Assembly (NCBI GenBank): GCA_026710795.1 | Contig: JAPOQK010000037.1 | Coordinates: 37,514 to 101,513, forward strand | Origin: Candidatus Poribacteria bacterium | GTDB taxonomy: Bacteria > Poribacteria > WGA-4E > WGA-3G | DNA length: 64,000 bases | Direction: 5' to 3' | Part shown: positions 31,461 through 50,213 of the stretch, piece after piece | Position numbering within the stretch: position 1 is the first letter of the stretch | How the letters are laid out: the number at the start of each line of letters is the position of its first letter | Position numbers and translations under genes: made by a program | The notes under the pieces: model-generated | What the model saw: the letters and a program-made list of their open reading frames with translations, nothing else | What the model was told of the DNA's origin: nothing | Database searches by the model: none

Positions 31461-31469
31461 ATTTTAATC

Positions 31470-34462: not shown

Positions 34463-34479
34463 TGTCGCTCCAGTGTGCC

Positions 34480-35139: not shown

Positions 35140-35192
35140 TCATTCCTCCTATTCCATAATCGTAGACATAAGTAATCATTAGGTACGCATTT

Positions 35193-35975
35193 TTATACTG
35201 TTTTTGCAGAAGCAGTAAACGTCGCGCCCATGTAAGTCAAAATACAAAACATAGATATTACCAATATAGAAAATTCCCACGTCGGTATATAGCCGTTAGT
35301 AGTAGCGGTATCAAAATAGAGACTTTTTCTAAATGCCGCAACCCCGTAAGTTAAGGGATTAAGTTTCATTACCCAAGCCAACCAACTGGGTGCTCCGTCA
35401 CTTGGAAAGAAAGCACCTGATAGCAACCAGATTGGAATGAGTATTAGGTTCATAATCGCATGAAAACCTTGCGTTGAGTCCATACGCCAAGCGATGATGA
35501 GACCGAGGTTCGTTAACCCGAACGCTAAAATAACCATCACACCTAACGTTAAGCACAGAGATGTTAGTCCAAAACGGATACCAATCAGTGGTGCCAAGAA
35601 AAGCAGTAGCACACCTTGAAAAAGTGCTAAAGTTGTCCCACCTAATGCTTGTCCCAGAACAACTTTCCATCTCGCTACAGGTGCAATAAGCACACCTTGT
35701 AGAAAGCCTTCACGTCGCTCATTTACAACAGAGATTGTAGCGAAAACAGCAGTAAAAAGCAAGACTAAAACGACAATACCTGGATAAAAGTATTCAATAT
35801 AGGTTGTTTCCTCCGATTTACCTGATGGTTGAAATGATGCACTCAATCCACTACCGATTAGAATCCAAAATACCAATGGCTGTGCAATTGCACTGAGTAG
35901 GCGACTCCTTTGCCGGTAAAAGCGAATTATTTCACGACACCAGATTGTTGTGACAGGTAACAGAACATTCACCAT
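35193..35975 (-). CDS. ABC-2 type transporter permease
   Basis: It is a six-helix ABC-2 permease, adjacent to an ATPase. Confidence 0.7.
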   Translation of the reverse strand: MVNVLLPVTTIWCREIIRFYRQRSRLLSAIAQPLVFWILIGSGLSASFQPSGKSEETTYIEYFYPGIVVLVLLFTAVFATISVVNERREGFLQGVLIAPVARWKVVLGQALGGTTLALFQGVLLLFLAPLIGIRFGLTSLCLTLGVMVILAFGLTNLGLIIAWRMDSTQGFHAIMNLILIPIWLLSGAFFPSDGAPSWLAWVMKLNPLTYGVAAFRKSLYFDTATTNGYIPTWEFSILVISMFCILTYMGATFTASAKTV

Positions 35976-35986
35976 TTTGTTCTTCC

Positions 35987-36904
35987 TTATACAAAAGGGT
36001 TCCCTGTTAACTTAATGAAAACGTCCTCTAACGAGGCTTTACCTACACGAACAGACTGAATTTCATTGGGAAACGCTGCAACTACCTCCTTTACAAACTC
36101 ATGACCTTGTTGACATTCAATGTGTATATAATTGTCAGTTATTTTTTGAGATACTTCAAAACTCTCTGCAATTGCCTGACTGAGTGTATCACCATTTGTT
36201 GTCTCAATCAACACAACATCACCAGCAATAGTATCTTTGAGTTCATCGGGTGTTCCGATTGTCACTAACCTACCTGAATCCAACATTCCGACTCGGGTGG
36301 ATAAATCAGCCTCATCCAGATGATGTGTTGTAAGAAGAATAAGAATGTTTTCTGTTGTTGCAAGCATATTCAGTTGATCACTGAGTTGTCTGCGAGAACC
36401 TACATCCAAACCGCTACTTGGTTCATCAAGCAGCAAAACACTCGGTGAATGAAGCATTGCCTTTGCGATTTCTACTCTTCTTCTTAATCCTCCAGATAAT
36501 TCTTCTACAATGTCCTGAGATCTATCACTGATACCAAACCGTTCTAACAATTCAAATATTCTATGTTTAAGAATCTTACCTTTAAGTCCGTAGAGATGTC
36601 CGTGATGTCGTAAATTCTCCGTAACAGTAAGCTTGATATCAAGTCCAGGATGTTGAAAAACAACACCGAGTAATTTTCGTATATCTTTTGTCTTGGTATT
36701 CAAGTCAAAACCGAGAATGTCAACACTCCCGTAGGTAGGTTTCATCAGGGTTGACAAAATCTTAAATAGTGTTGTTTTTCCACTACCGTTCGGACCAAGT
36801 AAACAAAAAATCTCTCCACGTGATACGGTGAAACTTATGTCATCTAACGCACATCTTGTACCATAAGAGTGCGTTAGATTTTCAACCGTAATTTTATTGT
36901 TCAC
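35987..36904 (-). CDS. ABC transporter ATP-binding protein
   Basis: It has Walker A GPNGSGKTT, the signature LSGGLRRR and Walker B LLLDEP. Confidence 0.85.
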   Translation of the reverse strand: MNNKITVENLTHSYGTRCALDDISFTVSRGEIFCLLGPNGSGKTTLFKILSTLMKPTYGSVDILGFDLNTKTKDIRKLLGVVFQHPGLDIKLTVTENLRHHGHLYGLKGKILKHRIFELLERFGISDRSQDIVEELSGGLRRRVEIAKAMLHSPSVLLLDEPSSGLDVGSRRQLSDQLNMLATTENILILLTTHHLDEADLSTRVGMLDSGRLVTIGTPDELKDTIAGDVVLIETTNGDTLSQAIAESFEVSQKITDNYIHIECQQGHEFVKEVVAAFPNEIQSVRVGKASLEDVFIKLTGNPFV

Positions 36905-36910: not shown

Positions 36911-37705
36911 CTACTTCTTGATTTTCAGAGTGAAATCTTGTTTGACTTCACCCCCAGCAGCGATAGTAACAACTACAGGTTCTTTGTTATTATTACCACA
37001 GGTTTCATGCCAGTACCCTAACTTATATTCACCAGGGGGAACATTTTCAAGTGTGAATTCACCCTTTTCGTTAGTCACTGCGAAATATGGATGCGGAACA
37101 TAAGCGACCCATGCTTTCATCCATCCGTGGATATCGCATTTTACTTCAACCGGACCTTCAGCTGCTTTTGCAGATGCGAGTTTCATTCTTTTTCGATTTT
37201 TTGTCTGTTGTTTATTGATTGATGTGCGATTCTTTTTGGTACCAAAGATATGCACATTATGTGTCGCCTTGTCGTTATTCAATACCGTAAGAGCTGTTCC
37301 AACAGGAATGATCTGTACATGTGGATTGAATCGGCATTCCTTCTGATCAAGTTCTACCTTCGCATCCTTGTCGAATTCTTTTCCTTGCGTAATATCCATC
37401 AGGTAGACAATTGTATTTTTCAATGCCATGTCTTCACCAACGACAAGTGATTCGTCAAATTTTTCAACAACATCACAAACCTTTGGGTCTTTATTTATTG
37501 CGATTTTTTTCTTTTCAGGTACTTTACCCTCAAATTTTACAATACCGCTAATCTTTCCACCGTTGTTAACTGCAACGGGTTTATACGCTTCTTTAGAAAA
37601 AACGAGTTTATTCATCTCCTCTTCTTCGTGGTCGTCTGCGAATACAATCAGACCGAACCCACAAGCGAGGAGTAGCGCGAAACATACCAACATTTTAGTT
37701 TTCAT
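36911..37705 (-). CDS. Secreted cupredoxin-like (type-1 Cu) protein with a CarboxypepD_reg-like C-terminal domain
   Basis: It has a signal peptide and the candidate ligands HNVH ... CDIHGWM (C-x2-H-x2-M). The C-terminus has NEKGEFTLENVPPGEYKL, a beta-sandwich. It is a paralog of 43917..44684. Confidence 0.55.
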   Translation of the reverse strand: MKTKMLVCFALLLACGFGLIVFADDHEEEEMNKLVFSKEAYKPVAVNNGGKISGIVKFEGKVPEKKKIAINKDPKVCDVVEKFDESLVVGEDMALKNTIVYLMDITQGKEFDKDAKVELDQKECRFNPHVQIIPVGTALTVLNNDKATHNVHIFGTKKNRTSINKQQTKNRKRMKLASAKAAEGPVEVKCDIHGWMKAWVAYVPHPYFAVTNEKGEFTLENVPPGEYKLGYWHETCGNNNKEPVVVTIAAGGEVKQDFTLKIKK

Positions 37706-37853: not shown

Positions 37854-39551
37854 TTATGTATTTCTCCGCTGTACAAAGCCTCGTAGACCAACTAATATGC
37901 CTAACGAGAGTAAAGCCACTAACGGAGGATATATAAATCTTTTGGATGAAGGCACAGGTTCAAGGACGAAGGAGTACCAACTTGAGATTACCCGTTTTGT
38001 GTCAACATCACCGTTTGCACCATCCCAAACTGAGAATGCGATTGGTACAAATTCACCTGGTTCTATTTGTAAATCTTTTTTATCATCGGTTTTTAATGCA
38101 CGTTTAATCCATAACCTATATTGTCCATCCGTGTATTTACCTTCTGCCTGAAGGTCGCCTTGAACTTCTTGAACTTCAGCTTTTGTGATTCCTTTTGCTG
38201 TAAGTTCTGTCACAGTGTCAGCAGCAGAAGCTTTCCATTGCCATAGATAGACAGCCTTCTTGCCACCCCAGAGAAAATAAGGTTTTGGGGCAGTTGGATC
38301 TTCTGGGATTTTGACTGGAAATTGGATTGCAATTGCGTCTTCGAAGGTTTTGCCAAGATCTTCGTCTTCCATTTCCTCAGTATTATTTGTCCGGTCATCC
38401 CATATAAAAAGAAAGGCAACTTCAGTATCATTGTAAAATGATTTTACATTTACTGAATCAATGGTTGGATTAAATTGACGCGGTTCTACAACGATCTGTC
38501 CAACCAGTGGAAAGTAACTTGCTTCAAGAGTCTCCCAAGCAGCATCATCTATTGTTGGTAATGTGTCTACTGTATATTGTGATCGAAGTGCATTTTTTCC
38601 GATTGCTGGTTCTGGTCTTTTTTCTGGTGCCAGAGATTTGACATAATTGGCAATATGCCAACTTTTTTCTTGAAACACTTTCATTGCTTCAGCATGTAAT
38701 TGTTTCTGTTCTTCATCTGCTAAACCTTCTGTCATCATATCTAAGATGTCATAAGCGTTTCCCATTTTTTCATCAAGTGAGTTAAATTCTTCATCCTCGG
38801 CATCAGTCATTTCAACCTTATTCTCCAATTGACCGTATCGTTGTGCTTCTTCTACACTTAAGCCAAAAGATGCATCTTCAAACATTGGCATAGCGGATCC
38901 TGCAATACCACCAATGAAACGTTTGTAAATATCCTCTGTACTGCTACCGCCTCTGAAATTCCAACTTTGTGCCAAATTTGCTGGCCAACTCTTAAAACCC
39001 CATTCATCTTGCAGGGTTGGTGCAGATGTACCATCACCGCGCCCCACGTTTCCGTGGCATTCAAAACACGCAAATTGGGCATAAAAGAACTTGCCTATTT
39101 CAACACTCTCTTCAGAATAAGGTATTTTACCTTCTAAACTAATTTCTATAGGAGGAGATTCATTCTCCTTAAAGCCTTCATAGAAGGTTTTGATATATGC
39201 CACAACTTCCCAACGTTCATCAGCACTTAGTGCAGATTCCCATTCTGGCATTGATGATCCGGGCATTCCTTTGGAAATGATGTCAAATAAATCTTTATCT
39301 GTAGGTAGTTCACCACCCGCTGTTGAACGAATTTTATATATTCCGCCAGTAAAATCTCTTGGTTGGGGTAGAAGGTTCTTTGCTGCACTGCCATCCCCGC
39401 GTCCTTCAACACCATGACAATGTGCGCAACTTTCCTCATACACCTCTTTTCCTTTTTCAGAGACTTCTGGCGCGTCTTGGGCATAAACCATGATATTAAC
39501 AGAGAATATGCTAAAGATAATGAAGGACAAGACATAAATTGATTTTCTCAT
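37854..39551 (-). CDS. Diheme c-type cytochrome with a large extra domain and C-terminal anchor
   Basis: It has a signal peptide, CAHCHG and CFECHG, and a C-terminal hydrophobic segment. Confidence 0.7.
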   Translation of the reverse strand: MRKSIYVLSFIIFSIFSVNIMVYAQDAPEVSEKGKEVYEESCAHCHGVEGRGDGSAAKNLLPQPRDFTGGIYKIRSTAGGELPTDKDLFDIISKGMPGSSMPEWESALSADERWEVVAYIKTFYEGFKENESPPIEISLEGKIPYSEESVEIGKFFYAQFACFECHGNVGRGDGTSAPTLQDEWGFKSWPANLAQSWNFRGGSSTEDIYKRFIGGIAGSAMPMFEDASFGLSVEEAQRYGQLENKVEMTDAEDEEFNSLDEKMGNAYDILDMMTEGLADEEQKQLHAEAMKVFQEKSWHIANYVKSLAPEKRPEPAIGKNALRSQYTVDTLPTIDDAAWETLEASYFPLVGQIVVEPRQFNPTIDSVNVKSFYNDTEVAFLFIWDDRTNNTEEMEDEDLGKTFEDAIAIQFPVKIPEDPTAPKPYFLWGGKKAVYLWQWKASAADTVTELTAKGITKAEVQEVQGDLQAEGKYTDGQYRLWIKRALKTDDKKDLQIEPGEFVPIAFSVWDGANGDVDTKRVISSWYSFVLEPVPSSKRFIYPPLVALLSLGILVGLRGFVQRRNT

Positions 39552-39553: not shown

Positions 39554-40315
39554 TTAATGTCCCACCTCACGGTATGAATAACCGGTATATTCGGATAAAA
39601 ATAGTATTACATCCCATATTTCATCTTTTTCAAGGTGGTCTTCCCAAATAGGCATTGCTGAATTCCACGGTGTGCCTTCTTTGGGCAATCCTGGTCCACC
39701 TTTACTAATTCGCCAAAAGAAGAAAGATTCTTGGAAATTTGGGATAATCCCTGGATCCTGAAAATTAGCCGGTAATGGATTTAACGCGTTAGCAAAATGT
39801 CCTTGTCCATCAAGATGATCTCCATGACAATAGAAGCAGTTATCATAATATACCTTTCTACCATTTTCAACGTGAGATTTGAATTCTTCTGGATCGTCTT
39901 TTTTCAAGTGCCGATAAGGATTTTCAGTATTTTCAAGGACTTCATCCTTGTATGTTAATTCTAAAGGTGGTGACGGATGTGCATCCCGTGGATCTCCTGG
40001 AGGACTTGCTTTTTGTGCTATATTTGTATAGGTATATCCTAAAACAAATAGAGGGATCAACACCACTAAAACTATCCTTCGTACTCTTTTATTTTCATCA
40101 ACAAGCGTTTCAATAATTGGACGGAGGAATTCACTTAATCTTGAGTCCTCAACAGATATGTGAACCAAGATGGCAATGAGAATTAATGCCATATACATTA
40201 CAATGACACTATTCGGTATAGGAACAGAGATTACACTCCCAACGATAAACCTTAAGAAGATCCAACATGCGATAAAGATTACAAGACATATTGTGAAAAG
40301 TGATGGTTTTCTCAT
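39554..40315 (-). CDS. Membrane-anchored monoheme cytochrome c
   Basis: It has two N-terminal helices and CFYCHGDH. Confidence 0.7.
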   Translation of the reverse strand: MRKPSLFTICLVIFIACWIFLRFIVGSVISVPIPNSVIVMYMALILIAILVHISVEDSRLSEFLRPIIETLVDENKRVRRIVLVVLIPLFVLGYTYTNIAQKASPPGDPRDAHPSPPLELTYKDEVLENTENPYRHLKKDDPEEFKSHVENGRKVYYDNCFYCHGDHLDGQGHFANALNPLPANFQDPGIIPNFQESFFFWRISKGGPGLPKEGTPWNSAMPIWEDHLEKDEIWDVILFLSEYTGYSYREVGH

Positions 40316-40358: not shown

Positions 40359-41888
40359 TTATTCAGGTGTTACTTCAGATGAATTATCTGTATTAATATC
40401 ACTTGCTTCTTCTGTTGTAACACCAGTTAAAGTACTTAAATATGCAAGAAGGTTTGCCATATCAACCACAGATAAATCATTGGGAAAGTTTGTTGGCATT
40501 GGTGATGTATCATGCAACTTTTTACCTGAAGCAACCATTATTATTGCTTCTTCAATATCAAACGGATCAAAACTTTCTTCACTTCCATCAACCATCAAAA
40601 CGATTTCGTCATCATCCATAGTACCTGACATATATTCACCAACGGTCTGTACGCCGTCAAAATCAGTAAGTGTCATCATCTTTTTCACATCAATCTTTGA
40701 TACGATGATTGTTTCCTCCCCAACCTTGAGTGTAACTGTGTCAACACTTTCCTCAACAATATCACCACTTATGGGAGAGTCAGAATCCATCGGTGTGATT
40801 GTTAGCGTGAAATATCCATTATCAATTAGATTTACAATGTCCTCTTCATCGATTGGTTCCTCATCAAAATCACTAAAGAGGATAGTGTGTTCCTGTTCAG
40901 TACCGTCTGCAGCTTTTGTTCGGACTATAACCTTATCAGTATCCTCCGATACAAGTGTTCCTTCATAGGTTATACCATTTGCTTTCACCTTGACTGTTCC
41001 ATAACCCGCGACAATTAATGCGTTAGGTAATAGTATTGACTCTTCAATATAACGCATACTGTTTAGTGCTGCAATGTCTGTTAATTCTGGTGCGGTAACA
41101 ACTTCAAAGTCTTCATTTACCTCACCTGCCTTTGGATTTTCAAGACCTTGCACAACATGACATGAAATACATGCAGCATCTATAAATACCTGTTTTCCTT
41201 TTTCAATATCTCCAGGAAGTAACGGTTCAAGTGCTTCAGCAGTTGTTCCCACATCCGCTCTATCTATCGGTTCGTCAAACGGTTCTGGATCAATTTCACC
41301 ACCTTGACTTTGTAGAAATGCTATGACTGCTTGAATCTCAACCTTAGAGAGTGCAATTGGATTTTTCCATATCTCTGGCATGATACTACCATATCCAGGG
41401 ACCAAATACTTACTCGGTTCATATAGAGATTCAATAAGGTATTGTTTTGCATTTAAACCGGGTTGTCTGGTCGCTGCGAGTACACCGATGTCTGTCAAAT
41501 CTGGACATCGTCCCTTTGGTGCTGAAGTGTCTAAGGTGTGGCAAGCACTACACTGTCCTTTGGTGTTAAAGATGCTTTCACCGATTTCAATTACTGCATC
41601 TGGGTCACTCCAATCTAATTCGGTTACTGTTCCAGTTCCAGTAGCTGTGCTTGGAACCCAAGCAGCTATAAGCGCAAAAAACCAGATAATAGACAAAGCA
41701 AATGTCAACAGTTTCATGACAATTCCCCATACAACCATATTTATCAGAACAGCAATAAGAAACCAGACAGACCAAGGCAGCAAATTTTCAGATCCAATTG
41801 GAAATGCTGGAGCCTTCGCAATAAATGCTATAAAACTCACTACCATTAATATTAGACCTGCGATTTTTATGATTGTATTTTTAGACAT
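40359..41888 (-). CDS. Membrane-anchored diheme cytochrome c with an acidic linker
   Basis: It has four N-terminal helices, CSACHT and CISCHV, and D/E-rich segments. Confidence 0.7.
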   Translation of the reverse strand: MSKNTIIKIAGLILMVVSFIAFIAKAPAFPIGSENLLPWSVWFLIAVLINMVVWGIVMKLLTFALSIIWFFALIAAWVPSTATGTGTVTELDWSDPDAVIEIGESIFNTKGQCSACHTLDTSAPKGRCPDLTDIGVLAATRQPGLNAKQYLIESLYEPSKYLVPGYGSIMPEIWKNPIALSKVEIQAVIAFLQSQGGEIDPEPFDEPIDRADVGTTAEALEPLLPGDIEKGKQVFIDAACISCHVVQGLENPKAGEVNEDFEVVTAPELTDIAALNSMRYIEESILLPNALIVAGYGTVKVKANGITYEGTLVSEDTDKVIVRTKAADGTEQEHTILFSDFDEEPIDEEDIVNLIDNGYFTLTITPMDSDSPISGDIVEESVDTVTLKVGEETIIVSKIDVKKMMTLTDFDGVQTVGEYMSGTMDDDEIVLMVDGSEESFDPFDIEEAIIMVASGKKLHDTSPMPTNFPNDLSVVDMANLLAYLSTLTGVTTEEASDINTDNSSEVTPE

Positions 41889-41914: not shown

Positions 41915-43846
41915 TTAGTCATCACTTTCTACAGCCACTTCTGCTTCAATTGGTACTGCAACTTGCTTTTTCTTATCTCCCCAAAGTCCGAGCCAGAATA
42001 TAAATCCTACAAGAGCAAAGAATATAACCATAATGATTGAAACCATATTCACAGCACTGCTAAGTGACGGTGTAAATGCATCTACAGAGGTATCTTTCAT
42101 TACACCAAAGATATGCCATCCCTCGCGTAGGCCTGAACGTGCATATCCCATCAAACCCATCAGTGATGTAAATGTAATAGCGAGTAGTATTAGAACGTAC
42201 TGAGAACGATCTGACATCTGCCCCCAATTGATCGTTCCTGACATAGTGGCTTTTCGATACATGATTATATCAAGGACTGTTACGACAACCATTACACCGA
42301 GTGCTACTAAGACTTGCCACGGGGTCAGTACATTTACGCGTACATTAGTTTCGACTGTAAACCCAACAATACCGATAACTACGATTATAACCACACCTAA
42401 AAAGAAAATAGCTGAAATAAGGATATTTCCCACACCTTTCCAACCTACAATAGGTGTTTTGCCTGATCGTCTATAAAAGAGAAAACTTAGAAAGGTGGTT
42501 AAAATAACGATATTTACAACAGTATTTTTTGCTGTCATCAACCCGAAAAAGCCGAGATGTGGATGGTTTGCACCTCCCATCGCACTAAGCTCTGTTGCGG
42601 ATGATATTTTGGATAACGAACGTGGGGTCATCCAAATTGCTACACAGATAACAATTACTGTAATCATATAAGGACGAAACCGTGCATATATCTCCGCACC
42701 TTTAATACGTCCCATACCAGACCAAAGATAGTAGTTTGCTCCAATAAACAGCACCCCAATCATCACAGCTTGTAGGATAAATAACCACGAGAAGAGACTC
42801 CCCATCATGTTAATGCCCATCGTGTTATTGAAATCGTAGATTTCTTTACCTAACCAATAACCTGCAAATGGCAAAGGGATCAATCCGATCAATGCGATGA
42901 AATTTCCATTGTAACCCATCCAATCGTAATGTGCTTTATCCTCTTTGGATTTTGCCACGAGAAATCGAAATGCAGCATAGGCTGCTACAATAGATCCACC
43001 AAAAGCGATGTTGCCGATGAGTCGGTGTATATTGACTGGCATCCAGGTGAAGTTGTTTATGGCATCCCACACCGTACCCAAAAATTCACCTGTAGTTTCG
43101 TCATGGAGCGAGATTACAGTTGCATCAACCTTTGCTGCGGCTTCGGCTGCAGTTAACTCAGGATCCTGGGCTAACATCTCAGCCACCATCTGTTCCTTAT
43201 TAAAATCTGGTAAGTTTTCCTTGGTAGAATCTGATAACTTCTTGAACTGTGTTGCGGGACTCGTCTGATAAGTAAGCCAAGTGTTTGACACAAACATAAT
43301 CGCTGTGCCCCAGATGTTTAAGAGCACACCGAGGAAAAGGTGTACCCATTTAAACCTACCCTTCATCTTATCCCAACCGTAGTAATAGATGTAGAGTGTA
43401 AAGGTTTCACCGAAGAACAGTATGACGTAAAAAATCATCGTAGGACCGAAGATTCCGCTTAGCTTGCTCAATACTTTGGGGTAGCACCATACTAAAACAA
43501 AGACGAGAACACCACCAAGTAAGGCAGTTGTTGAAAATGCTCCCATACAGAGTTTGATGAACTCATATGCCATTCGGTCATACCGTTCTTCCTTGGTTTT
43601 CCAACCGATGAATTCAATGATAACAGCAAACATCGGCACACCGAGGATAAATGAACCAAACAACAGATGAAGTTGTGCAGCTATCCAGGCAGCATTGCGG
43701 CTTCCTATAAGAGGAAACGGACGGTATTCCTCATCAGTCATGTCTTGTGCGAATGCAGGTACTACTGCAAATAAGACAAAACCCAGCATCACAAGTGCTA
43801 ATATGAGATATATTCTCTTTAATGTATGAGAAGAACAACAACGCAT
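41915..43846 (-). CDS. Cytochrome bd-like protein (CydA superfamily), no adjacent CydB
   Basis: It aligns by eye with E. coli CydA at the heme b558 region (AAQLHLLFGSFILGVPMFAVIIEF vs AMYHFLFVPLTLGMAFLLAIMET) and at GETFTLYIYYYGWDKMKG...FVSNTWLTYQ vs ESTFVGLFFFGWDRLGK...LVANGWMQNP. At 643 aa it has extra C-terminal helices. Confidence 0.75.
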   Translation of the reverse strand: MRCCSSHTLKRIYLILALVMLGFVLFAVVPAFAQDMTDEEYRPFPLIGSRNAAWIAAQLHLLFGSFILGVPMFAVIIEFIGWKTKEERYDRMAYEFIKLCMGAFSTTALLGGVLVFVLVWCYPKVLSKLSGIFGPTMIFYVILFFGETFTLYIYYYGWDKMKGRFKWVHLFLGVLLNIWGTAIMFVSNTWLTYQTSPATQFKKLSDSTKENLPDFNKEQMVAEMLAQDPELTAAEAAAKVDATVISLHDETTGEFLGTVWDAINNFTWMPVNIHRLIGNIAFGGSIVAAYAAFRFLVAKSKEDKAHYDWMGYNGNFIALIGLIPLPFAGYWLGKEIYDFNNTMGINMMGSLFSWLFILQAVMIGVLFIGANYYLWSGMGRIKGAEIYARFRPYMITVIVICVAIWMTPRSLSKISSATELSAMGGANHPHLGFFGLMTAKNTVVNIVILTTFLSFLFYRRSGKTPIVGWKGVGNILISAIFFLGVVIIVVIGIVGFTVETNVRVNVLTPWQVLVALGVMVVVTVLDIIMYRKATMSGTINWGQMSDRSQYVLILLAITFTSLMGLMGYARSGLREGWHIFGVMKDTSVDAFTPSLSSAVNMVSIIMVIFFALVGFIFWLGLWGDKKKQVAVPIEAEVAVESDD

Positions 43847-43916: not shown

Positions 43917-44684
43917 CTACTTTTTCTTTGGTTTCTTGAAATCAGTGCTTTTGAAGTCAACTGAAATATCTCCAGTTGCTGGTACTTCAACTGTTGTGTT
44001 AGCAGAACCAAGGTCTTCATGCCATGCAATCACACGTGCTCTACCTGCCGGAACATCTTTTATGGTATATTTACCTGCATCTGATGATTTTTCATAATCA
44101 TCTGGACTAATATAGTTGTCCTTCTCATCCTTTTGACCGGTTACAGTATAATAGTTGCTATCAACAGCAACGATATAGCCAGACATCCATGCATGAATAT
44201 CACAAGTCAACTTGATTGCTTCTGCTTTGGTAATTGTATATGGGTAGGTTTTGCCTTTCGATGCAATCTGCACATTTGGAGCTTCATTTTTCTCTGCATG
44301 TGAGTGAACATTGTGTGCTACTGGATCACTGGAAGTGACAGTAACTGTCACACCGACTGGAACAACAAGAACATGAGGAAGATACCGACATCCCACCTGA
44401 TCAACTTTTGGATTTTCTTTTGGCATCTTTAGTTCTTCTCTTGCACGAGTGCGCACGGAAATCACTACATTCTGAATACCTTTTCCTTTTGACACTACAA
44501 GTGCTTCTGATTTGGCACCTTCTGTAGCAGTAATGCAGTGTTGTTCCTGTGTATTGATTGTAAGTGCAGCACGAGCAGGGACATCACCTTCATAGGTGAC
44601 TGTACCTGTGATGTTTCCTGCGAAGGCAATACTTGTCATCGTAAATAAAATAAGTAAAGCAAGTATGGTCTTTAGACTTTTCAT
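43917..44684 (-). CDS. Secreted cupredoxin-like protein (paralog) with a CarboxypepD_reg-like domain
   Basis: It has a signal peptide, AHNVHS ... CDIHAWM, and a GKYTIKDVPAGRARV beta-sandwich. Confidence 0.55.
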   Translation of the reverse strand: MKSLKTILALLILFTMTSIAFAGNITGTVTYEGDVPARAALTINTQEQHCITATEGAKSEALVVSKGKGIQNVVISVRTRAREELKMPKENPKVDQVGCRYLPHVLVVPVGVTVTVTSSDPVAHNVHSHAEKNEAPNVQIASKGKTYPYTITKAEAIKLTCDIHAWMSGYIVAVDSNYYTVTGQKDEKDNYISPDDYEKSSDAGKYTIKDVPAGRARVIAWHEDLGSANTTVEVPATGDISVDFKSTDFKKPKKK

Positions 44685-44782: not shown

Positions 44783-45139
44783 TTAAGGTCGGAAGGTTTT
44801 CTTTATATAACCGAGAAGTTCCTGTTGTTCTTTTGGATTGAGGTAATAGTGAAACGCAGGCATATCGTTCTTGCCACCACTTATGCTTTTAAGAAGCTGT
44901 GTATCGTCGTGCGTAATCCACAAATCACTATCAGTCAGATCTGCAGGATCTAATTTTTTGAAACGACCAATACGTCCATTCCCTTCACCACTGTTTCCAT
45001 GACATCCGGCACAGTATCTGGCATATTTGTATTCAACATCTGCCTGATATTTTGTGCGTGGGTCAATCTGTTTGCATAACCATATAAATCCGTTTATCCA
45101 AACAAATATCATGACGATTATAATCAGTAGATGTTTCAT
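44783..45139 (-). CDS. Membrane-anchored monoheme cytochrome c
   Basis: It has one N-terminal helix and CAGCHG. Confidence 0.7.
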   Translation of the reverse strand: MKHLLIIIVMIFVWINGFIWLCKQIDPRTKYQADVEYKYARYCAGCHGNSGEGNGRIGRFKKLDPADLTDSDLWITHDDTQLLKSISGGKNDMPAFHYYLNPKEQQELLGYIKKTFRP

Positions 45140-45185
45140 ACAAAACGGATACCCTGTGTAGTGATGAATGGAATCCGTTGCTACA

Positions 45186-48100
45186 CTAACGTCCTAAAGA
45201 GATTAAGTAATCACGAACTAACCTAATCTGTTTTTCTGCGTCATCATCCGCATAACCTTCAACTGGCATGTGTTGTCCCCCGACGAGTGGCCACGCCTGT
45301 GGCATCGCGGTACCGCGTTGGAATTGCTGTGGATTTTTCATCCAATCAATTAACCAATCCGCTTTAAGCCGCTGCTTCGCCAAGGATAAATCAGGTCTAC
45401 CCGCCTTGTCGCTACCTGCAGGTATTACTTCACCTTGTGAAGGATGACATGAATCGCATTTTAGTTCGTCAAAAATCTGTTTACCAGTTCGTAATTCTGC
45501 CTGAGTAGATGTAGGAAGTTCAATGGTCTCATAAGGGAAGGGTTCATTGTCTAAGGCAGAGAAGTATTTGATAAGTGTGGTTGCATCTTGATCCGACATA
45601 TCAAATGTTGGCATCCGCACTTTAAGTCCATATCGTATCTCCGAAGGATTCTTGAGGAAATCAAACAACCAATTAGGATAAACTCTTGCACCTTGCGCTT
45701 GCAGTGGTGGTGGTGATAGTTGCTTGGTAGTAATTGGATCTAAACCTTCGTGAGCAGTAATTACATTGCTATAGTCTCCACCTTCTCCCTCAATTACGTG
45801 GCATCCCGTACAGTTGTATCTTTTGACGACCCGTCTGCCAGCATCAATCTGGTTCTTTCTCTCAACACGATGAGATTCAACTGCATGATCATATATATAA
45901 TTTAATGGGTATGGTTGAGGTTGGAAACTCTTCAATAACACAGCGATAGACTTTGCTTCGTCATGATCAATCTGGAACACAGGCATACGTGAAACAATGC
46001 GGCGCGTTTGATAACGACGTGGGTCTGTGATTTTGCCAATAGTCCAACCGTGCCAACTATGTTCAACATCTTCCTCTAAAGTATCTCCAAAGTCAAGTTC
46101 GTCTGACAATTTTGCGCCAAATTCTCCAAGATCAGCACCTACCTTGGATTCATTCTCAAACCCTGGTATTTCGTGACAACCGAAACAACCATAAGTCCTA
46201 ACAAGTTTTTCACCTTCCTGCTTATCCTCTTCACCAATTGAATCAGAAATTGGTGATGGAGTTTGCTTCTGTAAACTCATTAAATATGCAACTACATTGT
46301 CAAGTTCACTATTGCTCAAACGCAAACTTGGCATTGAGGTGTCAGGATCATAATCTCTCGGATTTTCAATCCAACTCCGTAGATAACTCGGTTTGACCTT
46401 TGTACCTACACTGTCCAGAGCTGGCGCAAAATCGCTCCCTAAACCATCAACAGCATGGCATGATAGACATCCCACCGTTTTTACTGTCTCTTCACCTGCA
46501 CTTATATCACTTTCAGATTTCGAATATGTCCCTTGTGAAGCATCTATGGACTGATCGGTAAAATCTTTCAGATAGGCGGTAATAGATTTCACTTCATCAA
46601 CTATACGTAAAACATCATCTTTGGCATAAGGATATGTTGTTCCATCATCTGTTTTCAGAAGATAACCATTATCCGTTTCAGTGACAATACCAGTACGTTG
46701 TCCACCATTTTTGAAGTAGACAAGTTGGGTCATGCCATCTACTGGGAAGAAGTTAGGCATTGTCGTTTCCGGTAAATATGCTTCCGGTTTTTTAATCCAT
46801 TTTTCAAGCCAATCACCATCTTGCACTTTGCTGCCAATTTTGCTAAGCGATGGTCCAACCTTCTGAATTTTATCAATTGAACTATATCCTTCTACAGCAT
46901 GACACCCATGACATCCGAGATCTTCAAAAAGATCCATCCCTTTGGTTAGATTGGGTGCATAATCCACTGGCGCGTTTGTTTCAGAATTAACCCCGAAATC
47001 TAACTTCATTACACCATCATGACACCGTCGACAATTGGATTCCATGTATCCTTCTAATTCGTCCGATTTTCTTCCAGTGTGTTCATCTAATCCCAAGACA
47101 GGCGTTAACCAATATTCTGAATGTGTTAGTGCGTGTGCGGCTTTTGCGGTTAATCCGTGTCCTTGTCCACCGTGGCATGGTGTACAACCAAATTTTTCTA
47201 CTGGATGTTTCGCAAGAAGGACATCACGATGTGGGTGTGTCTGAAGGACTGAACGATAACCAGTCTCATAAGAAATTTCTACCTCACCAAATACATCCGG
47301 GTCAGTAAAGGTTAGGACACCATCCTCAGACAATTCATATTCATCAGCTTCTGCATCAAAACCATCAATTACTATTGTTTCATTACCGGGTTTTACCTTC
47401 GGGTGTTTGAGTTGGTGTTTGACAAGGTCTTCACCGTCACCTTCTATTTCAAATGTTTCTTCGGCATCGGGACCATAGCCACTTCTATCGACAGAGAAAT
47501 GACATGTTGCACACCGATCCGCGGTATAATCAAACTCTTCAAGATAATACTGTACGATTGTTCTGGTTTCTCGAAATGGATTTTCAAGAAGACTACCGAG
47601 GAAGGTACGTTTGATTCCACCTACATCTGCTAACTTCTCTTCAAGACGTGTGATTGCTTCAAGTTGTGCTTTATTCGCTTCGAGCGTGACAAGAGATTCT
47701 TGGGCAGTTGTTATTGCATTTGCAATTGTATCATCTGTAGGTTTATATTTTTGAGATATAAGATAGGTAGAAAGGGCATTAGTGGGATCACCACTGTTCT
47801 GGTAAAAATCGGCAAGGGTTTTGTTCGCATCAGCATATTCAACTTGTGCTGTTAGAACATTGGTAGTTAATTCACCTTCAATTCTTTTTTCGTATTCGTC
47901 TAATTTCTCTTTCCACTTTTCAACAGTATCATTATGCGTACCATGGGCTTCATGAAGGCTATGTTGGTATTTATAATTAATAGCATCTGATTTGCTTTGC
48001 TCAAACTTGCGTTCTTGCATTGCCTCATCCAATGCTACCTTTTTCGTTTCAACGATTTTCTCCAAATTTCCTAACTCTTTTGTATCTATCTGAGGTGCGG

Positions 48101-48338
48101 AGGGTTTTTCAGGTGGGTTCTGCTTTGCATGCTCCAATTCTGCCTTTGTCTTATCATATTCATATTGGTAAAACTGCTGCTGGATTTCCTTCCAAGGACG
48201 ACGCGTAATCATCTCATCCCAGAAACCCCATATCGTCACCAACCCTAATAGAGCTGATAATATAAAGAACAAAGCAGAATAAGATTTATTTTCTGCGGGA
48301 ATCTCTTTTTTGCTCCTCACGAAATGTATAACCTCCAA
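45186..48338 (-). CDS. Octaheme c-type cytochrome (bc-complex-associated), N-terminal anchor plus coiled coil
   Basis: It has eight CxxCH motifs (CATCHF, CTPCHG, CRRCHD, CHGCHA, CLSCHA, CFGCHE, CTGCHV, CDSCHP) across 1050 aa. Confidence 0.8.
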   Translation of the reverse strand: MEVIHFVRSKKEIPAENKSYSALFFILSALLGLVTIWGFWDEMITRRPWKEIQQQFYQYEYDKTKAELEHAKQNPPEKPSAPQIDTKELGNLEKIVETKKVALDEAMQERKFEQSKSDAINYKYQHSLHEAHGTHNDTVEKWKEKLDEYEKRIEGELTTNVLTAQVEYADANKTLADFYQNSGDPTNALSTYLISQKYKPTDDTIANAITTAQESLVTLEANKAQLEAITRLEEKLADVGGIKRTFLGSLLENPFRETRTIVQYYLEEFDYTADRCATCHFSVDRSGYGPDAEETFEIEGDGEDLVKHQLKHPKVKPGNETIVIDGFDAEADEYELSEDGVLTFTDPDVFGEVEISYETGYRSVLQTHPHRDVLLAKHPVEKFGCTPCHGGQGHGLTAKAAHALTHSEYWLTPVLGLDEHTGRKSDELEGYMESNCRRCHDGVMKLDFGVNSETNAPVDYAPNLTKGMDLFEDLGCHGCHAVEGYSSIDKIQKVGPSLSKIGSKVQDGDWLEKWIKKPEAYLPETTMPNFFPVDGMTQLVYFKNGGQRTGIVTETDNGYLLKTDDGTTYPYAKDDVLRIVDEVKSITAYLKDFTDQSIDASQGTYSKSESDISAGEETVKTVGCLSCHAVDGLGSDFAPALDSVGTKVKPSYLRSWIENPRDYDPDTSMPSLRLSNSELDNVVAYLMSLQKQTPSPISDSIGEEDKQEGEKLVRTYGCFGCHEIPGFENESKVGADLGEFGAKLSDELDFGDTLEEDVEHSWHGWTIGKITDPRRYQTRRIVSRMPVFQIDHDEAKSIAVLLKSFQPQPYPLNYIYDHAVESHRVERKNQIDAGRRVVKRYNCTGCHVIEGEGGDYSNVITAHEGLDPITTKQLSPPPLQAQGARVYPNWLFDFLKNPSEIRYGLKVRMPTFDMSDQDATTLIKYFSALDNEPFPYETIELPTSTQAELRTGKQIFDELKCDSCHPSQGEVIPAGSDKAGRPDLSLAKQRLKADWLIDWMKNPQQFQRGTAMPQAWPLVGGQHMPVEGYADDDAEKQIRLVRDYLISLGR

Positions 48339-48403
48339 GTCATTCGATAATAAGAGAACACATTTACAATAAACCGTTTTTGTCTAAAAAGAAGTCATAG
48401 AAA

Positions 48404-49270
48404 TTAAATGTTGAACCAAGGTGACACCCAAATATACTTCACATTCAATGCCAAACGTAAGATCATTTTTATCGGCAATGAAAGCATTGATAAAAACAAA
48501 AATGAAACGATAACATATCGAATCATTCCAAGTTCTTGTAAAAATTTACTACTTTTACATTTCCAGATATAAAATATTGGTCCGAGTGCGAAATAACCTG
48601 CGACAATAGCAAAACCGAAGAAATTTGCAGTCATATCATCACGAATACCGAAGAGATACGACAAATTTACGTTTGTTAATGGAACGAGTTTATGTGGATC
48701 CCAATATTCCCATGGCATAAATATGTTCCAACCTGGTCCTCTCAAGAAAGTACCTACTATCATCAAAACTATCCATAGTATTATGAACCCGAAACTAAAC
48801 ACAGCAAGTGCAAACGGTCGTTCTTTGATTGTATAGTATCCCTTTCCTTTAGGGTTGATATCAATGTACGGAATAGCGATAAGACCAACGATTATAAGTC
48901 CGGGTAATACAACACCTGCTATCCACGGATCAAAGTAGACCAACATCTCTTGTAAGGCGAGAAAATACCAAGGAGCCTTGGATGGGTTCGGTGTTTTGGC
49001 GGGATCACTCATCTCCTCAAGTGGTGCATCAATCATAATTGACCAAACACCCAAAATCAACATGATGATAATTGCACAGATAAACTCATTGCGACATAGA
49101 TATGGCCACACGTAAACCTTATCATTCAACGCAGCATCGGATGGAACACCTGTTCGATCAGTTTGCCGTGCCTGCTTATATGACAACCAGATAAAGAAAG
49201 GTATTAAAAAAAGCATAGCCAAAATCGGAACATTATCGGGTTTCGTTATCAGCAGTAGTAAATTGTCCAT
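48404..49270 (-). CDS. Cytochrome b C-terminal part (subunit IV / PetD-like, extended)
   Basis: It has the PEWY-equivalent KAPWYFLALQEML plus additional helices. Confidence 0.7.
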   Translation of the reverse strand: MDNLLLLITKPDNVPILAMLFLIPFFIWLSYKQARQTDRTGVPSDAALNDKVYVWPYLCRNEFICAIIIMLILGVWSIMIDAPLEEMSDPAKTPNPSKAPWYFLALQEMLVYFDPWIAGVVLPGLIIVGLIAIPYIDINPKGKGYYTIKERPFALAVFSFGFIILWIVLMIVGTFLRGPGWNIFMPWEYWDPHKLVPLTNVNLSYLFGIRDDMTANFFGFAIVAGYFALGPIFYIWKCKSSKFLQELGMIRYVIVSFLFLSMLSLPIKMILRLALNVKYIWVSPWFNI

Positions 49271-49382
49271 ATCTAAATCCGTTCTCCTTCAAAAAGGGAT
49301 ATTACAATCTTCTAAAACTTATACCATGTGAGTAGTCTTACGTATATATATTACTGACAATACTATTTACATTTGCCATAGA

Positions 49383-50153
49383 TTATAGAGGTCCGGATAT
49401 TCCACCATCTTTACGAACACGCCAAAAATGTAGTGCCATCAACAGACTTGCTACCAAGGGGACAGCAATACAATGCAATATATAGAACCTTAACAACGTT
49501 GACGGTCCGACGATAGTACCTCCAAGCAATGCAAATCTGACATCGTTTGCTTGTGTAATGTCTGGAGGGGCAAATGGACCTTCATGTCCTAATACTGGTG
49601 TAGCACGTGCCATATTCGTTCCAACAGTTACTGCCCAATATGCCAATTGGTCCCATGGAAGCAAATAACCAGTGAAACTCAGAAAGAATGTGATTAGCAA
49701 TAAAATCACACCCACAGCCCAGTTGAACTCACGTGGTTTTTTGTATGAACCTGTCAAAAAAACCCTAAACATGTGGAGCATCACAGAAATTACCATACCG
49801 TGTGCAGCCCAACGGTGCATATTGCGTAGAAGCATCCCGAAGGGAATGTCAAATTCAAGTGCCTGTACATCTCGAAAAGCATATTCGGCAACAGGTCTAT
49901 AGTAGAACATGAGCAAAACCCCTGTGACGGCTGTCACAAGGAACATAAGGAAGGTAATACCACCCATACACCAAGTAAAACGGAAGTTTAAAGCGTGGCG
50001 AGAAATTCGGGGAGGGTGCAGGTGCAGCCACACGTTTTGCAAAACTTGTAATGTGTAACGGCGACCGGTTTTTTCGTATCCATGACGAAATATTGATTTC
50101 CAAATATCAGAATTTGTTATCTTATCTTTTAGCCCTTTATGTTCTTCGTTCAT
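49383..50153 (-). CDS. Cytochrome b6-like (N-terminal four-helix heme b part of a split cytochrome b)
   Basis: It has the His ligands in HRWAAHGMV and HMFRVF and four helices. Confidence 0.85.
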   Translation of the reverse strand: MNEEHKGLKDKITNSDIWKSIFRHGYEKTGRRYTLQVLQNVWLHLHPPRISRHALNFRFTWCMGGITFLMFLVTAVTGVLLMFYYRPVAEYAFRDVQALEFDIPFGMLLRNMHRWAAHGMVISVMLHMFRVFLTGSYKKPREFNWAVGVILLLITFFLSFTGYLLPWDQLAYWAVTVGTNMARATPVLGHEGPFAPPDITQANDVRFALLGGTIVGPSTLLRFYILHCIAVPLVASLLMALHFWRVRKDGGISGPL

Positions 50154-50213
50154 TATTATCCTTTTCAGTCCGATGACGCATTACATCTCATCAGACGCAA
50201 TCTTCCCCTTAAG

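What the first reader, a model, noticed from the sequence alone, without database searches (positions are those of the whole stretch)
41915..43846. CydA-superfamily 'cytochrome bd-like' protein without CydB, embedded among c-type cytochromes and cupredoxins
Clear CydA homology is visible by eye at the heme b558 His region and the GWDR/ANGWMQ block. The protein is longer (643 aa) with extra C-terminal helices. No CydB/CydX follows. Instead it is flanked by a membrane diheme cytochrome c with four extra helices (40359..41888) and a cupredoxin. This resembles the poorly characterised bd-like families reported from Nitrospirae and Planctomycetes-type genomes. Their substrates and acceptors are unknown.
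Basis: partly seen in the sequence, partly recalled or inferred. Interest (0 to 1): 0.7.

Follow-up and report, generated by a model that had tools for sequence, protein, structure and literature searches.

The report
Cytochrome bd-like (OR-N2) respiratory module
This is a real gene from a Poribacteria-type genome for a cytochrome bd-like membrane haem protein of the already catalogued but never purified OR-N2 family; it sits in its usual four-gene module with c-type cytochromes, so it is a new member of a known kind rather than a new kind.

Summary

The signature residues I could map match subfamily OR-N2 of Murali, Gennis and Hemp (2021). So does the operon: membrane dihaem cytochrome c (Kustd1711 homologue), membrane monohaem c, and a dihaem-c/NxrC-like protein.

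This module, including the two flanking cupredoxins, is the one already described in the nxr clusters of Kuenenia, Nitrospira and Nitrospina. It also corresponds to TO_1 of Manganitrophus.

Two points add context:
- No NXR gene lies in this window. The module sits between a Rieske/cytochrome b complex and an aa3-type oxidase operon.
- The four genes keep their order in 72 of 80 related loci from about 10 phyla. In other phyla, 13 of 42 loci have cox genes directly downstream.

The most likely function is a cytochrome c/cupredoxin:O2 oxidoreductase (about 0.5). A quinone-linked, alternative-complex-III-like role is the main rival. No member of the family has been characterised biochemically.

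The parts
41915..43846 (-). OR-N2-type cytochrome bd-like protein (CydA superfamily), 643 aa. N-terminal signal or anchor helix (res 7-33, AFA|QD) plus 13 TM helices.
43667..43669 (-). Codon of His60, the equivalent of E. coli CydA His19 (axial ligand of the active-site haem).
   Evidence: hhalign. Conserved in 32/34 diverse homologues. Codon verified.
43406..43429 (-). Tyr140...Glu147: positions of proton-channel E99 (here Tyr, with the one-residue deletion typical of non-qOR1 families) and E107 (retained).
   Evidence: hhalign. Y140 31/34, E147 27/34. OR-N2 reference has Y183/E190.
43340..43342 (-). Codon of His169, the equivalent of E. coli His126 (proton channel).
   Evidence: hhalign. Conserved 33/34.
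43025..43027 (-). Codon of His274, assigned as the equivalent of E. coli His186 (haem b558 ligand), at the periplasmic end of TM5.
   Evidence: Conserved 32/34. Lies in the NIHR motif within the Pfam-matched stretch and at the start of model helix 268-297. The hhalign alignment ends at residue 268, so this assignment is by motif and position.
42113..42565 (-). Family-specific C-terminal region with conserved His428, Met437/Asn441, Met563/Met566, Ser571 (in place of E445), Trp577 and His578. Possible extra haem or metal ligands on the periplasmic side.
   Evidence: Conservation counts. Spacing matches OR-N2 reference M430/N434, S563, W569. No sequence match to any PDB chain.
40359..41888 (-). 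Membrane-anchored dihaem cytochrome c (509 aa), homologue of Kuenenia Kustd1711. About 3 N-terminal TM helices, CxxCH at 113 and 240, very acidic C-terminal 170 aa.
   Evidence: PDB 7zs0_A E 7.4e-38. CxxCH and TM scan. Charge count. Conserved directly downstream in the related loci.
39554..40315 (-). Membrane-anchored monohaem cytochrome c (253 aa, about 3 TM, CxxCH at 160).
   Evidence: Pfam Cytochrom_C / Cytochrome_CBB3. Motif scan. Conserved third gene of the module.
37854..39551 (-). Alt-NxrC-like protein (565 aa): signal peptide, dihaem cytochrome c domain, EB_dh (EbdC/NxrC-type) domain, C-terminal TM anchor.
   Evidence: Pfam EB_dh 9.7e-22 plus 2 cytochrome c domains. PDB 6h5l_B 7e-47, NXR-C 7b04_C 1e-11, EbdC 2ivf_C. 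TIGR03477, sub-threshold. The Met haem ligand position is Gln410.
43917..44684 (-). Secreted cupredoxin-like protein (255 aa) with a type-1 Cu motif (H...C-x2-H-x2-M) and a C-terminal beta-sandwich domain.
   Evidence: Pfam Copper-bind 1.2e-3. PDB blue-copper and amicyanin hits. Conserved upstream in Poribacteria.
36911..37705 (-). Second cupredoxin-like paralogue (264 aa).
   Evidence: 29% identity, E 1e-32 to the first. Found downstream of the module in 37/38 Poribacteria loci and 19/42 loci of other phyla.
44783..50699 (-). Upstream context: Rieske (50214-50699), cytochrome b (49383-50153), PetD-like (48404-49270), octahaem cytochrome c (45186-48338), monohaem c (44783-45139). Together a bc-type complex III.
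   Evidence: Pfam. CxxCH count. Present upstream in 32/38 Poribacteria loci and 0/42 others.
26708..36904 (-). Downstream context: ABC-2 transporter (35193-36904), CoxII (34480-35139), CoxI (32495-34462), CtaA, CtaB, two Cox3 paralogues, SCO1. Together an aa3-type haem-copper oxidase operon.
   Evidence: Pfam. NCBIfam CtaD_CoxA 1.6e-187, score just below that model's own cut-off. Co-directional with gaps of 2-148 nt from Rieske to CtaB.

Best explanation
**What it is.** The gene encodes the membrane core of an OR-N2-type 'cytochrome bd-like' complex.

**Shown**
- It is a CydA-superfamily protein that keeps the nine-helix bd core. It keeps the His19-type ligand of the active-site haem (His60) and the His186-type ligand of the entry haem (His274). 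It also keeps part of the cytoplasm-facing proton path (Glu147 = E107, His169 = H126).
- It lacks the Q-loop, the E99 and E445 carboxylates, and any CydB partner.
- It is co-transcribed, or at least tightly co-directional, with two membrane-anchored c-type cytochromes and a membrane-anchored dihaem-c/NxrC-like protein. Two type-1 copper proteins bracket this set.

**Inferred mechanism**
- Electrons arrive on the periplasmic side from high-potential one-electron carriers. These would be the module's own c haems (the Kuenenia homologue titrates at about +350 mV) and the cupredoxins.
- In this organism those carriers would be fed by the adjacent Rieske/cytochrome b complex.
- Electrons enter the bd-like protein through the His274 haem and pass to the His60 haem, where O2 is reduced to water.
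- Protons for this step would come from the cytoplasm, so a membrane potential forms without pumping.
- On this reading the module is a cytochrome c/cupredoxin:O2 oxidoreductase. It would be a second, probably high-affinity, terminal oxidase beside the aa3 oxidase encoded directly downstream.

**Confidence by step.** Family assignment about 0.9. O2 reductase function about 0.5.
For: **Family**
- The OR-N2 signature positions I could map match Suppl. Table 6 of 10.1101/2021.01.16.426971. They are H60, Y140, E147, Y154/Y156, H169, G112/V115, H274, M437/N441, S571 and W577.
- Helix count is 14 including the N-terminal helix.
- The operon holds several cytochromes c and an EbdC homologue, as described for OR-N2.
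- Poribacteria are listed as OR-N-positive in that paper.

**Module**
- The four-gene order is conserved in 37/38 Poribacteria loci and 35/42 loci of other phyla.
- The order is the same as kustd1712-1709.
- A Kustd1711 homologue follows the gene. Its haems titrate at about +350 mV (PMC11791136).

**Function**
- The active-site His and the E107/H126 channel residues are conserved across 26-88% identical homologues. This is the expected pattern if chemistry that consumes cytoplasmic protons at the haem site is kept.
- The literature treats OR-N enzymes as putative cytochrome c-oxidising O2 reductases.
- The equivalent clusters are among the most highly expressed genes in Nitrospira moscoviensis and Manganitrophus.
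- All neighbours here are aerobic respiratory genes.
Against: - No OR-N enzyme has been purified or assayed. Papers from 2024-2025 still say experimental confirmation is lacking.
- The haem b595 ligand E445 is Ser, and E99 is Tyr, so a canonical di-haem O2 site is not assured.
- The same module occurs in strictly anaerobic anammox bacteria inside the nxr cluster. That is odd for an O2 reductase.
- This organism already has an aa3 oxidase in the same gene string.
- The second b558 ligand (M393) cannot be assigned with confidence. Met348 and Met437 are both conserved candidates.
- I had no model coordinates, so I could not check haem-site geometry.
Confidence: 0.5

Rival explanations
1. **Quinone-linked 'alternative complex III-like' module.** The bd-like protein would have evolved a new quinone site. 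It would connect the quinone pool with the periplasmic c haems and cupredoxins. In heterotrophs such as this one it would run forward, from quinol to cytochrome c or cupredoxin to the adjacent aa3 oxidase. In nitrite oxidisers and anammox bacteria it would run in reverse, from NXR to quinone.
For: - Proposed for the Nitrospina, Nitrospira and Kuenenia homologues (PMC3578206; PMC6606698).
- In other phyla, 13/42 loci place cupredoxin plus coxBA-ctaAB-coxC directly downstream on the same strand. 21/42 have cox genes within 10 kb and 0/42 have Rieske/cytochrome b nearby. This is the arrangement known for ACIII-caa3 operons.
- CoxII here has no fused cytochrome c domain, so it needs an external donor.
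- A highly conserved, near-invariant polar motif, HYDWMGYxGN (306-315), and G[KR]EIY (333-337) have no assigned role.
Against: - The Q-loop is missing and no motif resembling its quinol-binding residues was found. The segment that replaces it is about 28 residues. Lucker et al. report all quinol-binding residues lacking in the homologues.
- The retained E107/H126 path leads to the cytoplasm. That polarity would dissipate energy in forward quinol oxidation and would not drive reverse electron flow (inference from bd structures).
- In Poribacteria a complete bc complex lies immediately upstream, which makes a second complex III redundant.
Confidence: 0.25
2. **Membrane docking and electron-collecting module for a periplasmic dehydrogenase encoded elsewhere.** It would play the role proposed for NXR in nitrifiers. 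The NxrC-like subunit would receive electrons from a molybdo-enzyme or other soluble enzyme and pass them into the respiratory chain. The bd-like protein would be mainly an anchor or electron conduit.
For: - The 565-aa subunit carries an EbdC/NxrC-type domain.
- In Nitrospira this subunit is discussed as an alternative NXR gamma subunit and anchor.
- A MoeA molybdopterin-biosynthesis gene lies in the window at 5662-6888.
Against: - No molybdopterin oxidoreductase was found among the 40 window ORFs scanned. My synteny screen used only this window's proteins as queries, so it could not detect one in the related loci.
- The Met haem-b ligand of EbdC/NxrC is an invariant Gln in this family, so the domain may not work like NxrC.
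- A pure anchor would not need conserved active-site His and proton-path residues in the bd-like core.
Confidence: 0.15
3. **Detoxifying reductase for another small oxidant** (NO, H2O2, nitrite-derived species) rather than a respiratory O2 reductase.
For: - Canonical bd oxidases have peroxidase and NO-related activities (PMC4899803 abstract; discussion in PMC10839748).
- The module occurs in anaerobic anammox bacteria.
Against: - The module is embedded in a core respiratory gene string here.
- Its homologues show very high, constitutive-type expression in nitrifiers.
- There is no specific sequence evidence for this role.
Confidence: 0.07

Closest known systems
OR-N2 subfamily of the cytochrome bd superfamily (Murali, Gennis & Hemp 2021); NIDE0901-like 'bd-like oxidases' of Nitrospira
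   Same: - 14 predicted helices.
- His19, His186 and H126 equivalents are kept.
- Tyr at E99, Glu at E107, Ser at E445, Trp at W441, and Tyr/Tyr at F114/F116.
- No Q-loop and no CxxCH in the protein itself.
- The operon holds several cytochromes c and an EbdC homologue.
- No CydB.
   Different: - The host is Poribacteria-like, not a nitrifier.
- No OR-N1 paralogue is nearby that could form the proposed CydAA' pair.
- About 39% identity to the closest Nitrospira/Manganitrophaceae-labelled cluster I could name.
- I did not build a labelled phylogeny.
Kuenenia stuttgartiensis nxr-cluster genes kustd1712-1709 (plus blue-copper proteins), and the Nitrospira moscoviensis bd-like_3/alt_NxrC_2 cluster; the Manganitrophus TO_1 complex
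   Same: - Same gene order: bd-like, dihaem c, monohaem c, dihaem/NxrC-like.
- The dihaem c is a direct Kustd1711 homologue (E 7e-38).
- The alt-NxrC-like protein has the same size class (about 62 kDa), one TM anchor and two haem c motifs.
- Two cupredoxins are associated.
   Different: - No nxrAB in the window.
- The module is flanked instead by a bc complex and an aa3 oxidase operon.
- The dihaem c has two extra N-terminal TM helices and a 170-aa acidic tail.
Canonical cytochrome bd quinol oxidase CydAB(X) (E. coli 6RKO, Geobacillus 5DOQ/5IR6)
   Same: - His19 and His186 ligands, E107 and H126.
- GWD and NxW motifs.
   Different: - No CydB or CydX, no Q-loop, and no E99 or E445.
- Four additional TM helices plus an N-terminal signal or anchor helix.
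- Partners are c-type cytochromes and cupredoxins rather than quinol.
Alternative complex III-caa3 gene clusters
   Same: - A multi-haem c plus polytopic membrane subunit module encoded directly upstream of a haem-copper oxidase operon.
   Different: - No ActB-type Fe-S/molybdopterin-like subunit.
- No recognisable quinone site.
- A different membrane protein family.

Membership tests
Cytochrome bd superfamily (CydA-like) | Sequence and fold homology to CydA, in particular the first four helices | tested here: met
   [not shown]
Cytochrome bd superfamily (CydA-like) | Conserved His19-equivalent ligand of the active-site haem | tested here: met
   His60 aligns with His19. Conserved 32/34.
OR-N2 subfamily | Signature residues of Suppl. 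Table 6: Y(E99), E(E107), H(H126), Y/Y(F114/F116), G/I(L71/E74), H(H186), M/N(M393), S(E445), W(W441) | tested here: met
   Y140, E147, H169, Y154/Y156, G112/V115, H274, M437/N441, S571 and W577. The N-terminal positions rest on hhalign. H274 and the C-terminal positions rest on motif, position and spacing, not on a reference alignment. Two further Table S6 positions do not match: Trp179 where the reference has Leu (S140) and Asn188 where it has Ile (N148); both are inferred from the hhalign to E. coli.
OR-N2 subfamily | About 14 transmembrane helices | tested here: met
   The AF2 model has 13 TM helices plus the N-terminal helix 7-33. The count is 14 only if that probable signal peptide is included.
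OR-N2 subfamily | No quinol-binding Q-loop (K252/E257) and no haem c motif in the CydA-like protein | tested here: met
   No CxxCH. The segment after TM6 is a 28-residue amphipathic stretch. The Pfam match stops at profile position 239 of 418. K252/E257 could not be aligned.
OR-N2 subfamily | Operon with several cytochromes c and an EbdC-homologous subunit, often without a second CydA | tested here: met
OR-N2 subfamily | Placement inside the OR-N2 clade in a CydA phylogeny with labelled references | not tested
   Reference sequences (e.g. TKS59798.1) could not be fetched by accession with these tools.
[quoted passage not shown] | A second, OR-N1-type CydA paralogue as partner | tested here: not met
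   No second CydA-like ORF in the 64-kb window (family HMM). None within +/-10 kb in 78 of 80 related loci. A copy elsewhere in the genome cannot be excluded.
Canonical cytochrome bd quinol oxidase (CydAB) | CydB subunit; Q-loop with K252/E257; E99 and E445 | tested here: not met
   No PF02322 hit in the 40 ORFs scanned. Y140 and S571 replace E99 and E445. No Q-loop.
O2 reductase activity (any bd-type oxidase) | Haem-dependent reduction of O2 to water | not testable with these tools
   No OR-N enzyme has been assayed.
NXR-associated module (Kuenenia, Nitrospira, Nitrospina) | Genomic linkage to nxrAB | tested here: not met
   No molybdopterin oxidoreductase among the 40 window ORFs scanned. 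The rest of the genome was not searched.

The most novel reading that the evidence does not exclude
The four-gene bd-like module would not be an oxidase. It would be a third, so far unrecognised type of quinol:cytochrome c/cupredoxin oxidoreductase. In many heterotrophic phyla (Rokubacteria/Methylomirabilota, Gemmatimonadota, Latescibacterota, Poribacteria) it would feed the aa3 oxidase encoded directly downstream. Nitrite oxidisers and anammox bacteria would have recruited it to run in reverse. The non-nitrifier loci with module, cupredoxin and coxBA-ctaAB-coxC in one string, and no bc genes nearby, would be its natural forward-running form.
Probability: 0.2. Interest if true: 0.8.

Novelty: new member of a known kind. 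Interest (0 to 1): 0.35.

Why it matters
OR-N 'bd-like' enzymes are the presumed main terminal oxidases of globally important nitrifiers (Nitrospira, Nitrospina) and of Mn-oxidising Manganitrophus. None has been characterised.

This locus, and the 80 related loci, show three things:
- The complete module long regarded as NXR-associated (bd-like protein, two membrane cytochromes c, alt-NxrC; here and in some loci also cupredoxins) occurs in lineages not known as nitrite oxidisers.
- In these loci, which show no nxr genes where I looked, it is often fused into one gene string with an aa3 oxidase.
- In Poribacteria that string also includes a bc complex.

This argues that the module is a general respiratory device, not a nitrite-oxidation accessory. 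It also offers non-nitrifier, possibly more tractable, sources for biochemistry. The finding itself does not change the current picture of the family.

Tried and rejected
**Searches that found nothing**
- CydB or CydA' hidden nearby. Pfam scans of 40 ORFs, a family HMM and E. coli CydA phmmer against all six-frame ORFs of at least 60 aa found none. Small-ORF inspection of the intergenic gaps found no hydrophobic CydX-like peptide.
- NCBIfam has no model for the protein. Public records call it 'cytochrome ubiquinol oxidase subunit I', which is probably a misnomer.
- Tandem repeat and promoter/terminator scans gave nothing decisive. The one useful result is a strong terminator-like hairpin upstream of the Rieske gene (50953-50934), consistent with a transcript start there.

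**Technical dead ends**
- The search for related loci with the 34-sequence alignment failed because it had no conserved 7-mer. It succeeded with a 12-sequence alignment.
- The afdb50 fold library was unavailable.
- Lucker 2010 (PNAS) and the ISME version of Murali et al. were not held.
- Haem-site geometry could not be analysed because model coordinates are not exposed.

**Correction along the way**
- My first synteny count was wrong because of an ORF-overlap filter. It is corrected.

**Idea considered and set aside**
- I considered that the EB_dh domain is a genuine haem-b cytochrome like NxrC. I left this open because the Met ligand position is an invariant Gln.
Full report
**1. Observation**

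The ORF at 41915..43846 on the minus strand is intact (ATG start, 643 aa). The identical protein is called by independent pipelines on 15 public metagenome contigs. It matches Pfam Cyt_bd_oxida_I at E 1.1e-19, with 70.8 bits against a cut-off of 26.2. The match covers only profile positions 3-239 of 418.

Against solved structures the sequence signal is weak. The E-value is about 2e-4 and only the first ~150 residues align. A profile of 12 family members aligns to E. coli CydA with 88% probability over residues 49-268.

**2. Anatomy of the protein**

The model shows an N-terminal helix (7-33). It is preceded by basic residues and ends in a conserved AxA|Q motif, so it is probably a signal peptide. 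Thirteen transmembrane helices follow: 49-84, 87-121, 123-156, 166-195, 268-297, 301-322, 351-378, 391-405, 437-460, 470-494, 500-530, 546-572 and 595-625. An amphipathic periplasmic helix (325-348) sits where canonical enzymes carry the Q-loop. The topology is my inference from the positive-inside distribution.

The hhalign alignment and the Geobacillus alignment give the following equivalences in E. coli numbering. Conservation counts are from 34 homologues of 26-88% identity.

| Residue here | E. coli position | Conservation | Note |
|---|---|---|---|
| His60 | His19 | 32/34 | active-site haem ligand |
| Tyr140 | Glu99 | 31/34 | one-residue deletion typical of non-qOR1 families |
| Glu147 | Glu107 | 27/34 | proton channel |
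| Tyr154 / Tyr156 | Phe114 / Phe116 | 33/34, 27/34 | |
| His169 | His126 | 33/34 | proton channel |
| His274 | His186 | 32/34 | haem b558 ligand; assigned by motif and position, since the hhalign alignment ends at residue 268 |

Beyond residue ~340 nothing in PDB is sequence-similar. The family still conserves Met348, His428, Met437, Met563, Met566, Ser571, Trp577 and His578 there. It also conserves two polar motifs, HYDWMGYxGN (306-315) and G[KR]EIY (333-337).

**3. No CydB, CydX or CydA'**

- None of the 40 window ORFs scanned with Pfam hits Cyt_bd_oxida_II.
- A family HMM and E. coli CydA find no second CydA-like ORF among all six-frame ORFs of at least 60 aa.
- The gaps flanking the gene are 70 and 26 nt.
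- The only larger gap in the module holds no hydrophobic mini-ORF.

**4. Neighbours**

All genes from 50699 down to about 30534 lie on the minus strand, with gaps of 2-148 nt.

| Coordinates | Product |
|---|---|
| 50214-50699 | Rieske protein |
| 49383-50153 | cytochrome b |
| 48404-49270 | PetD-like |
| 45186-48338 | 1050-aa octahaem cytochrome c |
| 44783-45139 | monohaem cytochrome c |
| 43917-44684 | cupredoxin |
| 41915-43846 | bd-like protein |
| 40359-41888 | membrane dihaem cytochrome c |
| 39554-40315 | membrane monohaem cytochrome c |
| 37854-39551 | dihaem c, EB_dh domain, C-terminal TM anchor |
| 36911-37705 | second cupredoxin |
| 35193-36904 | ABC-2 transporter |
| 34480-35139 | CoxII |
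| 32495-34462 | CoxI |
| 31470-32414 | CtaA |
| 30534-31460 | CtaB |
| 29659-30252 and 27740-28411 | two Cox3 paralogues |
| 26708-27367 | SCO1 |

- The dihaem cytochrome is a clear homologue of Kuenenia Kustd1711 (PDB 7ZS0, E 7e-38). That protein's haems titrate at about +350 mV (PMC11791136).
- The 565-aa protein combines a dihaem domain like Kuenenia 6H5L_B (E 7e-47) with an NxrC/EbdC-type domain (7B04_C, 2IVF_C).
- The two cupredoxins are paralogues (29% identity, E 1e-32). Both have amicyanin-like H...C-x2-H-x2-M motifs.

**5. Relatives elsewhere**

The closest proteins (70-96% identity) are from Candidatus Poribacteria. A scan of one genome per species found 587 confirmed relatives. After Poribacteria, the best 80 include about 50%-identical proteins from these groups:
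- Latescibacterota
- Acidobacteriota (Thermoanaerobaculia, Polarisedimenticolia)
- Myxococcota
- Rokubacteria/Methylomirabilota
- Gemmatimonadota
- Chloroflexi, Acidimicrobiia and others

In a library clustered at 50% identity there are 1021 representatives at E<=1e-3 and 181 at E<=1e-30.

I compared all ORFs of the 80 loci with the window's proteins.

| Feature | Poribacteria loci (38) | Other phyla (42) |
|---|---|---|
| Full four-gene order (bd-like, dihaem c, monohaem c, NxrC-like) | 37 | 35 |
| Cupredoxin downstream | 37 | 19 |
| cox genes downstream, same strand | 31 (most of the rest are cut by locus or contig ends) | 13 |
| cox genes within 10 kb | 31 | 21 |
| Rieske/cytochrome b nearby | 32 | 0 |

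**6. What is already known**

- Murali, Gennis and Hemp (bioRxiv 10.1101/2021.01.16.426971) split the superfamily into qOR, OR-C and OR-N. OR-N2 has 14 helices and no quinol site. [quoted passage not shown]
- The OR-N2 reference residues in their Suppl. Table 6 match this protein at all positions I could map. Two of those positions (S140 and N148) differ: hhalign places Trp179 and Asn188 where the OR-N2 reference has Leu and Ile.
- Their Suppl. Table 3 lists Poribacteria as OR-N-positive.
- Lucker et al. 2013 (PMC3578206) describe a gene set conserved between Kuenenia, Nitrospira and Nitrospina. [quoted passage not shown] Membrane helices replace the Q-loop and all quinol-binding residues are lacking. 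They suggest it might act like an alternative complex III.
- Mundinger et al. 2019 (PMC6606698) report that the equivalent cluster in N. moscoviensis is among the 40 most transcribed genes.
- In Manganitrophus the corresponding 'TO_1' complex is at the 98th expression percentile.
- Kuenenia gene order kustd1712 (cydA-like), 1711 (dihaem), 1710 (monohaem), 1709 (dihaem) is the order seen here.
- Papers from 2024-2025 still state that composition and function lack experimental confirmation.
- No OR-N structure is in the PDB copy searched.

**7. How it most likely works**

*Shown.* The protein is a bd-fold haem protein that keeps the active-site His, the entry-haem His and part of the cytoplasmic proton path. 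It has lost the Q-loop. It is encoded with membrane-tethered high-potential c cytochromes and blue-copper proteins that all face the periplasm.

*Inferred.* Electrons from these carriers enter through the His274 haem and reach the His60 haem. In this organism the carriers would be fed by the adjacent bc complex. O2 is reduced at the His60 haem with cytoplasmic protons, which produces a membrane potential. I put the family assignment at about 0.9 and the O2-reductase function at about 0.5.

*Main rival (0.25).* A quinone-linked, ACIII-like function feeding the downstream aa3 oxidase. The strong linkage to cox operons in phyla without nearby bc genes speaks for it. The missing Q site, the polarity of the retained proton path and the bc complex next door in Poribacteria speak against it.

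*Other rivals.* A docking module for a periplasmic dehydrogenase (0.15) and a detoxifying reductase (0.07) are less supported.

**8. Verdict**

The locus is a new member, in a Poribacteria-like genome, of a known and catalogued but biochemically uncharacterised family.

The context adds two points. The module long called NXR-associated is widespread in lineages not known as nitrifiers. It is also frequently fused to aa3 oxidase operons. This adds modest value and gives a testable angle, but a specialist would not be surprised by the gene itself. Interest 0.35.

Noticed in passing
window 37854..39551 (-), residue Gln410 (EB_dh domain); homologues in L002-L080: In the NxrC/EbdC-like domain, the position of the EbdC haem-b ligand Met108 (also Met in Kuenenia NXR-C) is Gln. 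It is Gln in 19 of 19 homologues from several phyla, within a conserved QFP motif. The Lys201 position is Lys or Arg. This 'periplasmic cytochrome b' may bind haem differently or not at all.
   Followed up: partly
window 32495..34462 (-), first ~65 residues of CoxI: CoxI carries a long His/Asp/Glu-rich N-terminal tail (HEHDDDEQHEHAHDD...HHEHHHEE). Shorter His-rich tails occur on CoxI in other Poribacteria, Rokubacteria and Gemmatimonadota loci linked to the module. It may be a metal-binding tail.
   Followed up: partly
L051, L059, L066, L067, L069-L071, L073, L074, L076, L078-L080 (about 10-20 kb in each locus): In Rokubacteria/Methylomirabilota and Gemmatimonadota, the bd-like module, a cupredoxin and coxB-coxA-ctaA-ctaB-coxC form one co-directional string with no Rieske/cytochrome b genes within 10 kb. 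I did not find this linkage described in the papers I read.
   Followed up: partly
L048 (Myxococcota) and L055 (labelled Spirochaetaceae): The whole module (bd-like protein, two cytochromes c, NxrC-like protein, cupredoxin) is present twice, arranged divergently. The second bd-like copy is 44-46% identical to the query.
   Followed up: no
window 28509..29378 (-) and 59199..59969 (-): Two N6/N4 DNA methyltransferase genes. The first sits between the two Cox3 paralogues of the oxidase operon, flanked by the largest gaps of the gene string (280 and 97 nt). This suggests an insertion.
   Followed up: no
window 35193..36904 (-): An ABC-2 type exporter pair (DrrA/DrrB-like; also resembles the PQQ-alcohol-dehydrogenase-associated PedC system) lies between the second cupredoxin and coxB. 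It keeps this position in most Poribacteria loci. Its role is unknown; a part in maturation of the copper proteins is only a guess.
   Followed up: no
window 40359..41888 (-), residues 340-509: Compared with Kuenenia Kustd1711, the dihaem cytochrome c has two extra N-terminal TM helices and a 170-residue, extremely acidic C-terminal extension (41 D+E against 6 K+R). By eye the extension looks like repeats of the beta-strand 'nose'-like segment.
   Followed up: no
window 24490..26424 (-) and 18797..20101 (-): Two unusual proteins carry PCP_red domains (protochlorophyllide reductase 57 kD subunit family). One combines a universal stress protein domain, three PCP_red repeats and a rubredoxin-like motif. 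The other is a radical SAM/SPASM enzyme with a C-terminal PCP_red domain.
   Followed up: no
window 53674..57672 (-): A DUF1501 plus DUF1549/DUF1553 (PSCyt-type) gene pair. I recall this pairing as typical of Planctomycetes-like genomes, which would be consistent with the Poribacteria assignment.
   Followed up: no
[not shown]
   Followed up: no
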